A stretch of DNA of 63,674 nucleotides, counting the filler, from Licmophora abbreviata (lineage: Eukaryota): the NCBI GenBank assembly GCA_900291995.1. It is 13 parts of 13 records of this genome, joined end to end, with 100 filler letters (N's around TTAATTAATTAA, not from the genome) between each part and the next. Parts side by side here need not be neighbours in the genome. Positions count along the whole stretch, not along the records: positions 25,623 to 31,073 come from OLMU01002847.1; 12 more parts are not named here. One strand, written 5' to 3'. A program made the position numbers and the translations under genes. The stretch's first letter is position 1; each line of letters opens with the position of its first letter. Shown here one piece after another: positions 20,548-27,961 of the stretch. A model generated the notes under the pieces. That model was not told the origin of the DNA. It saw only the letters and a program-made list of their open reading frames with translations, and searched no databases.

Positions 20548-21657
20548 TCAGGCCCAGAAGGCCTCGCGCACCTCCGCCTCCCGAATCCCGTCAGGCGTCT
20601 GCACCTGCAGCCGCGTGCCCGCATCCCAATGGGTCATGCGCACCATGCCGATGGCCACGTTGATGCCGAAATCCGGGCTCCAGGCCGCCGAGCTGATCCG
20701 CCCCACCGGCTTGCCCTGTGCCAGAAGCGGCCACCAGTGATCGCAGGGCGGCACTTTCGGACCGTCGATCGCCACGGCGCGGATCTGCTGCACCGGGCCT
20801 TCCTTGGCCACCCGCAACAGCGCATCCCGTCCGATACATCCGATCGCCGTATGGGTGTTGCAGAACCGGCCAAGCCCGCATTCATGCGGTGTGTTGTCAT
20901 CCGTCATGTCATTGCCATAGCTCAGCAATCCGCCCTCGATCCGCTCGATCAGGTTCGGACAGCCAGCATGCACATCCATGCCCGCCCCCGCCTCCATCAG
21001 CGCATGCCACAAGGGCATCCCGATATCCGATCCCTCGATATAGATCTCGAAGCCGCCCTGCTTGGAATAGCCCGATCGCGCGATCACCATGTCGCGACCC
21101 TGGAAATCGAACACCCCAAAGCGGAAGAAGCGGATATCGCGCACCTTGTCACCAAAGACCGCCGCCATCAGATCATCGGCACGCGGCCCCTGCACCGCCA
21201 GCGGCGAGACGTCCGGCTCATCCACCAGCACATCCAGCCGCCAGCCATGCGCCGTGGCGCGCACCCAATAGAGCAGATCACTGTCGGCGATCGAGATCCA
21301 CCACCGATCCTCGGCCAGCTTGACGGCCACCGGATCGTTCAGCATGCCACCCGTCTCGTCGACGATCGGCACATAAAAACACTGCCCCGGCGTCATCCCC
21401 CGCAGATCGCGCGGCGTCAGCATCTGCATCAGCCGTCCGGCATCCGGCCCGCGCAGCTCGACCTGGCGCTCACAGGCCACGTCCCAGATCTGCACCGCCT
21501 CCTTGAGATGGCGGTAATCCTCTTCGATGCTGCGAAACACCGTCGGCAGCAGCATGTGGTTATAGACCGTATAGGCCTTCACGCCCGCCGCCTCGACCCC
21601 TTCGGAAAAGGGCGTGCGGCGCAACCTGCGCGACAGGGACAAAAGCGGCGCGGACAT
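20548..21657 (-). CDS. dmdA: DMSP demethylase
   Basis: GcvT fold with DmdA-type SRRLRRTPF, YTVYNHMLLP, WDVACERQV, RSGYSKQGGFEIY, GCPNLIERIE; adjacent to acuI and a FadR regulator. Confidence 0.93.
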   Translation of the reverse strand: MSAPLLSLSRRLRRTPFSEGVEAAGVKAYTVYNHMLLPTVFRSIEEDYRHLKEAVQIWDVACERQVELRGPDAGRLMQMLTPRDLRGMTPGQCFYVPIVDETGGMLNDPVAVKLAEDRWWISIADSDLLYWVRATAHGWRLDVLVDEPDVSPLAVQGPRADDLMAAVFGDKVRDIRFFRFGVFDFQGRDMVIARSGYSKQGGFEIYIEGSDIGMPLWHALMEAGAGMDVHAGCPNLIERIEGGLLSYGNDMTDDNTPHECGLGRFCNTHTAIGCIGRDALLRVAKEGPVQQIRAVAIDGPKVPPCDHWWPLLAQGKPVGRISSAAWSPDFGINVAIGMVRMTHWDAGTRLQVQTPDGIREAEVREAFWA

Positions 21658-21725
21658 CAGTCACTCTCCTTGGGCATGACGAACGGATCGCAAGACAGGC
21701 AGGGCCATCAGGCCCGGGCGGATCA

Positions 21726-22409
21726 TCAGCGCGGGCCTTTCCAGTCGATCTGGCAGATCTCGGCGCTGCGGCCATCGAAATCCCAGACCCGGCCAAAGGC
21801 ACGGACCCGACCCTTGGTGGCGGTGGCCACGGTGATGTCGGGGCCCATCCAGTATTCCGTGTTGGTCACCACGATATCCTCGCCATTATGGCCCGACACG
21901 GGGACGACCTCGCCCTGGATCTTCTTGCCCACCATCAACCGGCGTGTCTTGCCTTCGGTTTCGAACACCACCGGCGCGCGCTCGGCGCCCAGAAACTCGC
22001 TGACCAGAATGCCGAACAGCCCCGTGGTGCCGCGCGCCTTGCCGCTGAAGATATCCACCAGCGCGGTATAGGCGTCATTGCTGGCGCGCTCGTCGATATA
22101 GGCCGCGGCCTTCCAGTTGCCCCGTGCCATCAGGCCCGGGATCTCCAGCATCAGCCCGACATTCAGCCCCGACAGATCCGTGTCGCCATAATGCCCCTCG
22201 TCGATGCGCACCCCAGACCAGGCCTGGCAATAGCCCTCGGTCGGCGGATGCTGACCAAGCGAGACAACGCAAGGGCAGAACACCGTGCAATTGCAGTTCA
22301 GGATGAGTTCCCCCTTGATCGCCCATGGCACGGTGCCATGGCCCGATTTCGGCACACCGGGCATCCGGTTGTCGATCTTGGCGGGTGTGTCCAGTCTGTC
22401 AGCGGCCAT
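21726..22409 (-). CDS. DUF1326-family protein (Cys-rich N-terminus)
   Basis: W.IKGE..LNCNC.VFCPC...HPPTEGYC motif; paired with DUF2182. Confidence 0.85.
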   Translation of the reverse strand: MAADRLDTPAKIDNRMPGVPKSGHGTVPWAIKGELILNCNCTVFCPCVVSLGQHPPTEGYCQAWSGVRIDEGHYGDTDLSGLNVGLMLEIPGLMARGNWKAAAYIDERASNDAYTALVDIFSGKARGTTGLFGILVSEFLGAERAPVVFETEGKTRRLMVGKKIQGEVVPVSGHNGEDIVVTNTEYWMGPDITVATATKGRVRAFGRVWDFDGRSAEICQIDWKGPR

Positions 22410-22427
22410 CTGCGGCCCTCCCTTTGC

Positions 22428-23188
22428 TCAAATCCCGGCGCCAAGCGCCATCCAGCCCGCCGCCGCCAGCAGCACGACCCCCAAGGGGCGCGTGAGCCAA
22501 CGGCCAAGATCGGGCAGTTTCTCGATCACCATGACCACCGTCGCAAGGCCCATGAACGCCAGGTTCATGACCCCCCCCAGAAGGCCAGCGCCATCAGCGC
22601 CCAGCAACAGCCAAGACAGACCGCGCCAAGCCGCAAACCGTTGCGCCACGGCCCCTCGTCCCAATGCTGCATGAAGAACGAAAGCGGCGCGCGGCACTTG
22701 GCCAGACATGCCTCCTTCAGGGCGCTGAACTGATAGCCCCCCGCCAGCGCCAGCAGCCCCGCCGAGAGCCAGCCCGAGCGGCTGTCTCCGAAGGCGCTGA
22801 CCAGATCCGCCCGGAACAGCGCCATCTGCGCAGCGGCCGCCACCACCGAAAAGCCCAGCCAGACCGCAAGATACCCCGCCAGAAGCCGCCCGAAGCGGGT
22901 CTGGCCGCTATGGCCAAGCTCGTCATATGTGGCCAGCGCCGGCAGCGCCGTAGGCGCCATCATCGCCGCCGACATCAACGCCCACATCACGGTGATTCGC
23001 GCAAACCCCGCCGCATCGGGGGTGACCACGCACAGGCTGGCCAGAAATTCAGCGCCGTAAATGCGCCCCGCAACCCGCAGATCCGACGGCAGCGCCATCA
23101 CGTAAAGCGCGCCCCAGGCCAGCAAAATCAGGCCGAAAAGCATCAGCCAATGCCCCCCAGCCATCCGCCTGATACGTGCCGAAATCAT
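22428..23188 (-). CDS. DUF2182-family putative metal-binding membrane protein (frameshift at C8 run 22571-22578)
   Basis: MWALMSAAMMAP, YQFSALKEACLAKCR, CLGCCWALM, then GVMNL...IEKLP in the shifted frame; GGAGAGG SD before ATG 23188. Confidence 0.85.
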
Positions 23189-23222
23189 GCGCCCTCTCCG
23201 CGACTCGATGCTTGCGCCGAAA

Positions 23223-23248
23223 TTGTCAGACATTTAAATGTAAGACAA
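23223..23248. promoter_or_regulatory. FadR/GntR-type operator (26-bp palindrome)
   Basis: TTGTC-ag-ACATTTAAATGT-aa-GACAA, made of two TGT-N3-ACA sites, in the 60-bp divergent intergenic region. Confidence 0.8.
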
Positions 23249-23998
23249 ATGAAAATTGATCCCGCCAACAAAGCCGACCTCTCGGCCCAGATCGCCGAAG
23301 CGATCCGCGACGCCATCGTCGAGGGCCGCATGATCGTGGACGAGCGCCTGCCCTCCGAGGCCGAGCTTGCCGACCAGTTCGAGGTGTCGCGCCCCACCGT
23401 GCGCGAGGCGCTCAAGCGGCTGGCCGCGCAATCGCTCATTCGCACGCAGCGAGGCGCGTTCGGCGGCGCCTTCGTCAACCGGCTCAGCTATGAAGGTGCC
23501 TACGGCCAGCATATCACCACCTCAACGCTGCTTTTGTCGATGAACGCGGTCAGCTTCGAGACCGCCTGCGAGGCGCGCTACGCACTCGAACGCGCCTGCA
23601 CGCCGCTGGCCTGCGCGCGCCGCACCGCCGATCATCTGGCCACCATGCGGGCCGAAATTCACCGCCAGGCACAGCCGGGCCTGTCGGATGAATCCTTCTG
23701 CGCCTCGGATGTGGCCTTTCACCGCGCGCTCGTGGATGCCGCCGGCAACCCGGTGCTCAGCTACCATCTGGCCGGCGCTGTCGAGGCGATGCAGCCCTTG
23801 ATGAACATGATTACCTTCACCGCCCGCTCGCGCGAGTTGATCGAGCGGTTGCACACCCGCATCGCCGATGCCCTTCAGGCACAGGATGCCACCGCCGCCG
23901 AAACCGCCCTGCACGAGCTCGAAGCCTATACGCTCACCCTCGGGCGCGACGTGATGGCCGCCCATGCCCGCAAATCGGCGCCTGTTTCTTCTGGCTGA
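23249..23998 (+). CDS. FadR-subfamily GntR regulator (probable DmdR-type regulator of dmdA/acuI)
   Basis: MKIDPANK...RLPSEAELADQFEVSRPTVREAL wHTH plus FCD domain (DVAFHRAL..AAGN); divergent from the dmdA operon. Confidence 0.9.
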   Translation: MKIDPANKADLSAQIAEAIRDAIVEGRMIVDERLPSEAELADQFEVSRPTVREALKRLAAQSLIRTQRGAFGGAFVNRLSYEGAYGQHITTSTLLLSMNAVSFETACEARYALERACTPLACARRTADHLATMRAEIHRQAQPGLSDESFCASDVAFHRALVDAAGNPVLSYHLAGAVEAMQPLMNMITFTARSRELIERLHTRIADALQAQDATAAETALHELEAYTLTLGRDVMAAHARKSAPVSSG

Positions 23999-24012: not shown

Positions 24013-24112
24013 NNNNNNNNNNNNNNNNNNNNNNNNNNNNNNNNNNNNNNNNNNNNTTAATTAATTAANNNNNNNNNNNNNNNNNNNNNNNNNNNNNNNN
24101 NNNNNNNNNNNN

Positions 24113-24777: not shown

Positions 24778-25743
24778 TCAGGCAAATATCATCGAGCTCA
24801 ATTTTCGCCGACCGTTCAGAACAACAGGATCATTCGGTTTCAGGGCCTCGAAAATGGTGAACAACTGCTGCTTGGCGGCGGCCTCGTTCCACTCGCGATC
24901 CCGGCGGAAAAGCTCCAGCAATTCGTCCACTGCTTCGGCGGTCTGACCGCTCGCCTGCAGGGCCAGCGCCAGATCGAACCGGGCCTGATGATCCTCCGGG
25001 GCGGCGTCCACACGGGCGCGCAAGTCACTGACCGGGCCGGCGCTGGCGGCCTGTCGGGCCAGTTCGAGCTGCGCATTGGCCGCTTCGAGTTCCGGCGCCT
25101 TGGAAATCTCGGCCGGCGCGCCGTTCAGGATCGCCTCGGCCTGTTCCAGATCATCGAGCGCGATATAGGACCGCACCAGCCCGCCATAGGCGGCGGCGTT
25201 CTGCGCGTCTTCCTGAAGGATCGCCGCAAAGGTCTGCGCCGCATCCGCCGCTGCCCCCTGCTCGAGCATCTCTTCGGCGGCGGCCACAGCCTCGGCCAGC
25301 TCATCCCCCGGCGCCTGACCGCCCGATGCCGCGATCACACGTTCGATGAACGCCTCAAGCTCCGACGGCGGAACAGCCCCCTGGAACCCGTCGATCGGCT
25401 GGCCTTGCCAGAAGGCATAGACCGTGGGGATCGACTGTACCCGCAACTGCCCGGCGATCATCTGGTTTTCGTCGACATTGACCTTGACCATCTTCACCGC
25501 GCCGCCTGCCTTGGTCACAGCCNNNNNNNNNNNNNNNNNNNNNNNNNNNNNNNNNNNNNNNNNNNNTTAATTAATTAANNNNNNNNNNNNNNNNNNNNNN
25601 NNNNNNNNNNNNNNNNNNNNNNAGAAATCGACGATGACCGGAACGGTCCGACTGACATCGACAACCTCGGCCATGAAATCGGCCTCCGAGACATCTTTAA
25701 TCAGATCCTGTGCGGACGGCGCCTTGCCACCAAGTTCGATCAT
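24778..25743 (-). CDS. cnoX: Thioredoxin-TPR chaperedoxin CnoX/YbbN (split by gap; CxxC region not sequenced)
   Basis: 5' part MIELGGKAPSAQDLIKDVSEADFMAEVV...PVIVDF; 3' part KVNVDEN..VQSIPTV..GRRKLSSMIFA. Confidence 0.88.
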
Positions 25744-26956: not shown

Positions 26957-27032
26957 AAAAAAGCCCCGGCACGAAGCCGGGGCCAGTCCAACAGGGAGGT
27001 TGCATGTGATAACCCGCACATGCGACGGGATT
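26957..27032 (-). ncRNA. Candidate FNR-activated small RNA (~76 nt)
   Basis: 5' hairpin GTCGCATGTG/CACATGCAAC, unpaired CCTCCCTGTTGGACT, terminator GCCCCGGC-TTCGT-GCCGGGGC-TTTTTT; FNR box centred at -41.5. Confidence 0.7.
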
Positions 27033-27066
27033 GGATGCAGGATGCCGCAACGCACGACCGCCTGCA

Positions 27067-27080
27067 TTGATCTAGGTCAA
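27067..27080. promoter_or_regulatory. FNR/FnrL (Crp-family) box
   Basis: TTGAT-CTAG-GTCAA, one mismatch to TTGAT-N4-ATCAA. Confidence 0.75.
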
Positions 27081-27799: not shown

Positions 27800-27961
27800 C
27801 ACAATCATCCTCGCGCTGTTTGGCCACAGATGCGCCCGAAGATGCGAAAGAGCAAGATTTGCAACATCCCCTTCACGCCCACGTGTTGGGATGCGAGGGA
27901 ATATTTCATTTCGTTTCAAAAAGCCCTACATCTGACGGGCCGAAATCTGGAAAGGCCCGCC

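What the first reader, a model, noticed from the sequence alone, without database searches (positions are those of the whole stretch)
26957..27080. Complete FNR-class-II promoter driving a ~76-nt anti-Shine-Dalgarno sRNA behind cenR
Seen on the minus strand, in order: FNR box TTGACCTAGATCAA (27080-27067); -10 hexamer CATCCT (27044-27039; A at -11, T at -7); predicted +1 at 27032, which puts the box centre at exactly -41.5; a 10-bp 5' stem; single-stranded CCUCCCUGUUGGACU; then an 8-bp GC terminator with U6. Established: -41.5 is the canonical FNR activation geometry, and CCUCCC seeds pair with ribosome-binding sites in alphaproteobacterial sRNAs. Inference: an unannotated low-oxygen-induced trans-acting sRNA (functional analogue of FnrS) that shares its terminator with the envelope regulator cenR.
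Basis: partly seen in the sequence, partly recalled or inferred. Interest (0 to 1): 0.75.

Follow-up and report, generated by a model that had tools for sequence, protein, structure and literature searches.

The report
SorX small RNA with low-oxygen switch
This is a known small regulatory RNA (SorX) behind an envelope-regulator gene, and it probably also has its own low-oxygen on-switch, a second control route that has been hinted at but not shown.

Summary
The RNA is not new: 27030-26957(-) is full-length Rfam SorX (82.9 bits, cut-off 46.6), behind a cenR orthologue as in R. sphaeroides. All stated coordinates hold. FnrL binding beside SorX (RSs2461) and the FnrS comparison were already published from ChIP-seq, without showing regulation (PMC4263372).

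What I add is comparative support for a real internal promoter. An FNR box lies upstream in 36 of 89 cenR-SorX loci (downstream control 2 of 86). Aligned on the box alone, 31 loci show T-12 (24), A-11 (26), T-7 (22) and a purine at +1 (24), the -41.5 geometry. The box does not covary like RNA and has no -10 on the other strand (0 of 31).

Against: no start site is shown. The window's -10 lacks T-12. In Cereibacter the predicted start matches neither published 5' end.

Best reading: SorX with two inputs, RNase E processing of the cenR mRNA (known) plus FNR-family transcription under low oxygen (inferred, about 0.6). The scan earlier noted an FNR-box SorX-like sibling in another genome.

The parts
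27872..27886 (-). CenR-like autoregulatory site upstream of cenR (ACACG...GCGTGA)
   Evidence: Sequence; resembles the site listed for RSP_0847 in PMC9275681; similarity by eye only, not tested further
27828..27856 (-). RpoH-type promoter of cenR (CTTG-N20-CATCT); probable source of the long cenR-SorX transcript
   Evidence: Same pattern at a tight position in 28 of 72 cenR upstream regions, shuffles mean 0.6, max 3. The RpoH label rests on a recalled consensus, the spacing seen in SorY-like paralogues, and PMC3320616
27113..27799 (-). cenR orthologue, orphan OmpR-family response regulator (228 aa)
   Evidence: OmpR-type hits, none over a curated cut-off; 85-96% identical to Rhodobacteraceae proteins; same xth neighbour and SorX position as in Cereibacter; RSP_0847 = CenR
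27067..27080 (-). FNR-family box TTGACCTAGATCAA, centre at -41.5 from 27032
   Evidence: box in 36 of 89 loci against 2 of 86 controls; the R. sphaeroides FnrL ChIP motif sits at the same place in Cereibacter
27039..27044 (-). -10 hexamer CATCCT (A-11 and T-7 present; T-12 absent)
   Evidence: box-anchored profile of 31 loci
27032..27032 (-). Predicted +1 (A); inferred, not mapped
   Evidence: Purine at this offset in 24 of 31 loci; 2 nt upstream of the Rfam match start
26957..27032 (-). SorX sRNA, about 76 nt (Rfam match 27030-26957)
   Evidence: RF02784, 82.9 bits, E 6.5e-19, model 1-73 of 73
27002..27023 (-). 5' hairpin, 7-bp core
   Evidence: 5 of 7 pairs show compensatory changes in 15 rows
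26985..26999 (-). Anti-Shine-Dalgarno seed CCUCCCUGUUGGACU
   Evidence: Single-stranded in the Rfam structure; CCUCCCUGUUGGA invariant in alignment A1
26957..26984 (-). Intrinsic terminator shared with cenR
   Evidence: 5 of 8 pairs with compensatory changes

Best explanation
The locus encodes SorX, an Hfq-type sRNA whose CCUCCC seed pairs with ribosome-binding sites, mostly of transporter mRNAs, and blocks their translation. It has two inputs. (1) Known in R. sphaeroides, assumed here: the cenR mRNA from an RpoH-type promoter reads to the shared terminator, and nucleases including RNase E release the 3' piece under oxidative or heat stress. (2) Inferred: under low oxygen an FNR-family activator (most likely FnrL) binds the box at -41.5 and RNA polymerase starts at about 27032. 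This makes the same ~76-nt RNA directly, without changing the dose of the essential regulator CenR. Shown here: family membership, synteny, a conserved box, fixed box to -10 to +1 spacing, and a conserved cenR promoter. Inferred: actual initiation, activation rather than repression, which FNR paralogue acts, and the targets in this organism.
For: Rfam match. Box (at most 1 mismatch, TTGCG half-site counted as 1) in 36 of 89 cenR-SorX loci, 24 perfect; downstream control 2 of 86; shuffles mean 1.3, max 4. Stop-to-box distance ranges from -1 to 241, but box-to-CCC of SorX is 50-51 nt in 21 of 36. Box-anchored, ungapped: T-12 24, A-11 26, T-7 22, purine +1 24, of 31. nAnnnT at the canonical offset in 20 of 31; one locus per genus: 10 of 21 against 8% expected, p about 2e-6. 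Box loci 16 of 28 against box-less 2 of 27. Other strand 0 of 31. Spacer identity 0.31 against half-sites 0.94. The box has no compensatory change and its fifth pair is unpaired in 10 of 15 rows, while both RNA stems covary. The box is scattered over the cenR tree, 23 changes. It is independent of xth adjacency: 13 of 32 against 12 of 42. Extra SorX copies beyond the first terminator carry their own box in L007, L031, L069 and L075. FnrL ChIP peak at RSs2461; the same 14-mer overlaps the cenR stop in 6 of 6 Cereibacter-genus genomes, each followed by a TATA-like hexamer at offset -1 or 0.
Against: No start site or oxygen response is shown for any species. The ChIP enrichment is weak (4.53-fold; many listed sites are 30-450-fold) and regulation was not established. 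In Cereibacter the box starts 74-77 nt before the Rfam start, predicting a 102-105-nt RNA; the published R. sphaeroides 5' ends, from microaerobic cells, are 75 nt and 116 nt and are read as processing products. The window's -10 has C at -12 and a G+C-rich spacer. Its closest protein relative, L121 (96%), has no box. 46 of 89 loci lack a box and 7 have two mismatches. nAnnnT also peaks at offsets -17 (15 of 31) and -6 (13 of 31), unexplained. Two of the five short-class loci (L027, L196) have the box abutting the hairpin, which does not fit the geometry. FnrL is in the assembly, but on another contig of a fragmented 29-Mb assembly that looks mixed.
Confidence: 0.62

Rival explanations
1. SorX is made only by processing of the cenR mRNA. 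The FNR site is bound but acts otherwise, for example as a roadblock or repressor that lowers read-through into SorX under low oxygen.
For: All published 5' ends are processing products. FnrL represses some targets and only about half of the bound operons change expression. In Cereibacter the predicted start matches no published end.
Against: A roadblock needs no -10 hexamer or +1 purine at fixed spacing. Copies beyond the terminator carry boxes.
Confidence: 0.17
2. The promoter works in many relatives but is weak or decaying in this organism, so here SorX comes almost only from the cenR mRNA.
For: C at -12 where 24 of 31 loci have T; repeated loss across the tree, including near relatives; box-less genomes keep fnrL, 5 of 5.
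Against: The box is a perfect consensus, the spacing is modal (51 nt to CCC), and A-11, T-7 and A+1 are all kept. Two other loci also have C at -12 with A-11 and T-7 (L134, L157).
Confidence: 0.14
3. The palindrome is an RNA hairpin or processing signal in pre-SorX, or drives xth or an antisense RNA to cenR.
For: It is an inverted repeat in a transcribed 3' UTR, and xth follows on the same strand in the window.
Against: No covariation and frequent mismatches; a terminator lies between box and xth, and xth adjacency is independent of the box; no -10 on the opposite strand.
Confidence: 0.05
4. The box is a chance match.
For: 13 of 100 window shuffles give at least one perfect match somewhere.
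Against: 36 of 89 against 2 of 86, at fixed spacing; a ChIP peak.
Confidence: 0.02

Closest known systems
SorX / RSs2461 of Rhodobacter (Cereibacter) sphaeroides, Rfam RF02784
   Same: Sequence and structure over the whole model; position in the 3' UTR of cenR (RSP_0847), before xth; shared terminator; RpoH-type promoter on cenR; an FnrL-type site upstream.
   Different: In the window and most box-bearing marine relatives the predicted start nearly coincides with the mature 5' end, so no processing would be needed. In Cereibacter the box overlaps the cenR stop and predicts a 102-105-nt precursor with an extra hairpin. The potA target is untested here.
FnrS of E. coli
   Same: Would work alike: a sRNA under FNR control that represses mRNAs under low oxygen (PMC4263372 passage).
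   Different: No sequence similarity (stated in PMC4263372); FnrS is not embedded in a regulator's 3' UTR (recalled); oxygen induction of SorX is not shown.
SorY / RSs1543 and SorY-like paralogues
   Same: Stand-alone paralogues with the same seed and terminator are common in these genomes. SorY has its own RpoH promoter and targets a transporter, takP.
   Different: Not linked to cenR, and with an RpoH-type promoter instead of an FNR box. Equating these paralogues with SorY is my inference from promoter type.
Class II FNR/FnrL/Dnr promoters (e.g. D. shibae nosR2, hemA3)
   Same: Palindrome centred 41.5 bp upstream of the start (PMC5398030).
   Different: Here the promoter lies inside the 3' UTR of an essential gene and would drive an sRNA.

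Membership tests
SorX (RF02784) | Covariance-model score above the gathering threshold, full length | tested here: met
   82.9 bits against 46.6; model 1-73 of 73
SorX (RF02784) | [quoted passage not shown] | tested here: met
SorX (RF02784) | 5' hairpin, single-stranded CCUCCC seed, terminator hairpin | tested here: met
SorX (RF02784) | Co-transcription with cenR from an RpoH-type promoter | tested here: inconclusive
   Promoter-like motif present and conserved in 28 of 72; transcription not measured
SorX (RF02784) | RNase E-dependent maturation and Hfq dependence | not testable with these tools
   Known for R. sphaeroides only
SorX (RF02784) | Represses potA | tested here: inconclusive
   Best duplexes with 15 potA-like starts in five relatives -8.7 to -21.3 kcal/mol, against a window median of -11.1 for 49 ORFs; the best start was picked per gene, which biases the result
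Class II FNR-family promoter | TTGAY-N4-RTCAA palindrome | tested here: met
Class II FNR-family promoter | -10 hexamer and +1 placed for a centre at -41.5 | tested here: met
   Box-anchored profile, controls; the window's own -10 lacks T-12
Class II FNR-family promoter | In vivo binding of the regulator | not testable with these tools
   Published only for R. sphaeroides, 4.53-fold ChIP peak
Class II FNR-family promoter | Primary 5' end at +1 and FNR-dependent induction under low oxygen | not testable with these tools
   Only contigs were available; no matching entry in the supplements searched
FnrS (Rfam family) | Sequence and structure match | tested here: not met
   The Rfam scan of the whole window returned SorX only

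The most novel reading that the evidence does not exclude
Across Rhodobacteraceae, SorX has two opposite-signal inputs: cut from the cenR mRNA under RpoH-driven oxidative or envelope stress, and transcribed directly by FnrL from an internal class II promoter under low oxygen. It would then be the working counterpart of FnrS in this family. The low-oxygen input has been lost repeatedly or handed to duplicated, shortened copies downstream of the terminator.
Probability: 0.55. Interest if true: 0.5.

Novelty: new variant of a known kind. Interest (0 to 1): 0.36.

Why it matters
The RNA itself is ordinary. The promoter matters because PMC4263372 left open whether FnrL regulates RSs2461, and later papers treat SorX only as an RpoH-controlled processing product. 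The conserved geometry gives an exact, testable start position. [quoted passage not shown]

Tried and rejected
Search of relatives of the own genome: none held. The original SorX paper (PMC5056773) is not held; it may already mention the box.

Searches looked for the published ChIP motif next to a SorX seed and missed Cereibacter; for the gap I allowed was too short (the real gap is about 95 nt). Their loci (L201-L299) were left out of all counts. The motif was then found through L100/L321.

RNA runs: 22 listed, all contigs with small shares. Laying 4 of them gave no start or end information.

Supplement searches for a seed sequence or a start site near the predicted R. sphaeroides position found nothing: PMC5107571, PMC4809877, PMC6238624, PMC8407463 (lists gene-assigned starts; only an xth start was found) and PMC8625941. 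These are weak negatives. File 13 of PMC4263372 was not searched.

Targets: an exact 10-nt complement before ATG gave 21 rows in 5 genomes, 10 of them the sRNA loci themselves. Of the 11 genes, 5 are transporter parts, 4 are other families and 2 have no Pfam hit. The reversed-pattern control (0) does not correct for Shine-Dalgarno content, so this is a lead only.

One search used a mis-registered structure for the two RNA stems and was replaced. The RpoH-like count (16 of 71) used too strict a pattern and is not used.

Rejected: novel sRNA; FnrS family member; RNA hairpin; antisense promoter; promoter for xth; loss of the box explained by loss of fnrL.

Full report
Observation. The perfect box is the only one in the window, but 13 of 100 shuffles also give one, so alone it proves little.

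Identity of the RNA. Rfam gives one hit in the whole window: SorX, RF02784, 27030-26957, 82.9 bits against a cut-off of 46.6, model complete. The upstream ORF (27799-27113) is an OmpR-type regulator, 85-96% identical to Rhodobacteraceae proteins and nearest to Roseovarius. RSP_0847 of R. sphaeroides is the essential regulator CenR (PMC9275681, passages). Published: SorX is a 75-nt RNA cut by RNase E from a 116-nt pre-SorX in the RSP_0847 3' UTR (PMC6238624, passages). It is Hfq-dependent and inhibits potA translation (PMC9438474, passages), and is co-transcribed from an RpoHI/II promoter (PMC3320616, passages). The original paper was not held, so these facts are second-hand. The window keeps an RpoH-type motif before cenR, found in 28 of 72 upstream regions against a shuffle mean of 0.6. 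So the RNA is known, not unannotated.

What is known about FNR here. FnrL ChIP-seq in R. sphaeroides lists RSs2461 as a direct target: 4.53-fold peak, motif TTGATCTCACGCAA. The authors compare it with FnrS and say regulation could not be established (PMC4263372: passages, section 8 and Table S1 read). Searches for SorX with sRNA (26 papers), RSs2461 (5), SorX with FnrL (4), FnrL with RSP_0847 (1) and Roseobacter with small RNA and FnrL (1) showed no paper on an FnrL promoter for SorX, judged from listings and the passages I read. Subscription papers are not covered.

Comparative test. The controls are 2 of 86 equal stretches downstream and a shuffle mean of 1.3. The distance from the cenR stop to the box varies from -1 to 241, while the distance from the box to the CCC at the SorX start is 50-51 in 21 of 36. 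I set aside five loci with the box 51-52 nt from the seed. The other 31, aligned on the box without gaps, show T at -12 (24), A at -11 (26), T at -7 (22) and a purine at +1 (24), while the spacer is diverged (identity 0.31 against 0.94). With one locus per genus the canonical offset holds in 10 of 21 (expected 8%). Box-less loci lack the hexamer (2 of 27 against 16 of 28), and the opposite strand has none (0 of 31). Secondary peaks at offsets -17 and -6 remain unexplained. In 15 aligned rows the two RNA stems show compensatory changes (5 of 7 and 5 of 8 pairs) and the box shows none; its variants TTGAG and TTGCG also occur among the FnrL ChIP sites. On a cenR tree of 81 rows (8 short rows dropped) the box needs 23 changes, at least 11 forced by well-supported branches, so the signal is not one clade of near-copies; gain cannot be told from loss. 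Five box-less genomes all keep fnrL. Box presence is unrelated to xth adjacency. Four loci carry an extra SorX copy beyond the first terminator with its own box.

Cereibacter. In the C. azotoformans genome reached from L100, the reverse complement of the ChIP motif overlaps the cenR stop codon (L321); it does so in 6 of 6 genomes of that genus search, followed by a TATA-like hexamer at offset -1 or 0. There the box starts 74-77 nt before the Rfam start, predicting a 102-105-nt RNA. This matches neither published end (75 and 116 nt). That is the main result against an active promoter, though such an RNA could be trimmed at the same RNase E site.

Mechanism. Most likely SorX has two inputs: processing of the cenR mRNA (shown in R. 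sphaeroides, assumed here) and FNR-family activation from the internal promoter under low oxygen (inferred). The -41.5 position is the usual activating one in this family (PMC5398030, passages). FnrL is the likeliest factor, but Dnr and CrpK recognise similar sites. An fnrL gene is in the assembly but on another contig. Output is probably translational repression through the CCUCCC seed; target evidence here is weak. No RNA data could test the start site.

Other papers seen: PMC8625941, PMC5107571 and PMC4809877 (passages and supplement searches); PMC4615379 and PMC8307010 (passages); PMC8407463 (supplement search only); PMC7471390 (first of two parts).

Verdict. A member of the known SorX family, with a probable second, FNR-dependent promoter whose binding site was reported in 2014 and whose family-wide promoter geometry I did not find described. 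Interest 0.36.

Noticed in passing
L007:1060-1170(+), L031 (second copy, minus strand), L069:950-1050(+), L075 (second copy, minus strand): Extra SorX copies downstream of the first terminator, each with its own FNR box. In L007, L031 and L069 the box is 48-49 nt from the seed, predicting a minimal ~45-nt RNA that starts at the seed. L054, L174 and L322 have extra copies without a box.
   Followed up: partly
L004, L155, L180 (Roseibacterium, Rhodophyticola, Roseicyclus): cenR-linked copies that lack the usual 5' hairpin and have the box about 28 nt closer to the seed, as if the promoter spacing was kept when the hairpin was lost.
   Followed up: partly
L040, L049, L066, L074, L077, L079, L100 and many more: A common stand-alone paralogue with the same seed and terminator and a CTTG...CCTA(A/T)AT promoter. 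It scores only around the SorX cut-off in Rfam and hits no other family; probably SorY-like.
   Followed up: partly
positions -34 to -27 in box-bearing loci (e.g. L146, L154, L158): A conserved AGT..TA directly after the box, the source of the second peak at offset -17. The window lacks most of it. Unexplained.
   Followed up: no
window 27022-27008: The hairpin loop GGGU(U/C)AU is well conserved across SorX copies and could be a second pairing or protein-binding site.
   Followed up: no
window 27872-27886 (-): A sequence like the published CenR autoregulation site is kept upstream of cenR in several relatives (printout).
   Followed up: no
whole window; G000: The window is a scaffold of Roseovarius-like contigs joined by N runs inside a 29-Mb, 7,734-contig assembly that looks mixed. 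Several genes are cut by gaps (e.g. near 24065, 25518-25600, 31121).
   Followed up: no
window 20548-23998: A GcvT-like aminomethyltransferase ORF, two small conserved ORFs and a divergent GntR-type regulator, next to an acrylyl-CoA-reductase-like fragment. It resembles a DMSP demethylation (dmdA) region; labels are recalled from the translations, not tested.
   Followed up: no
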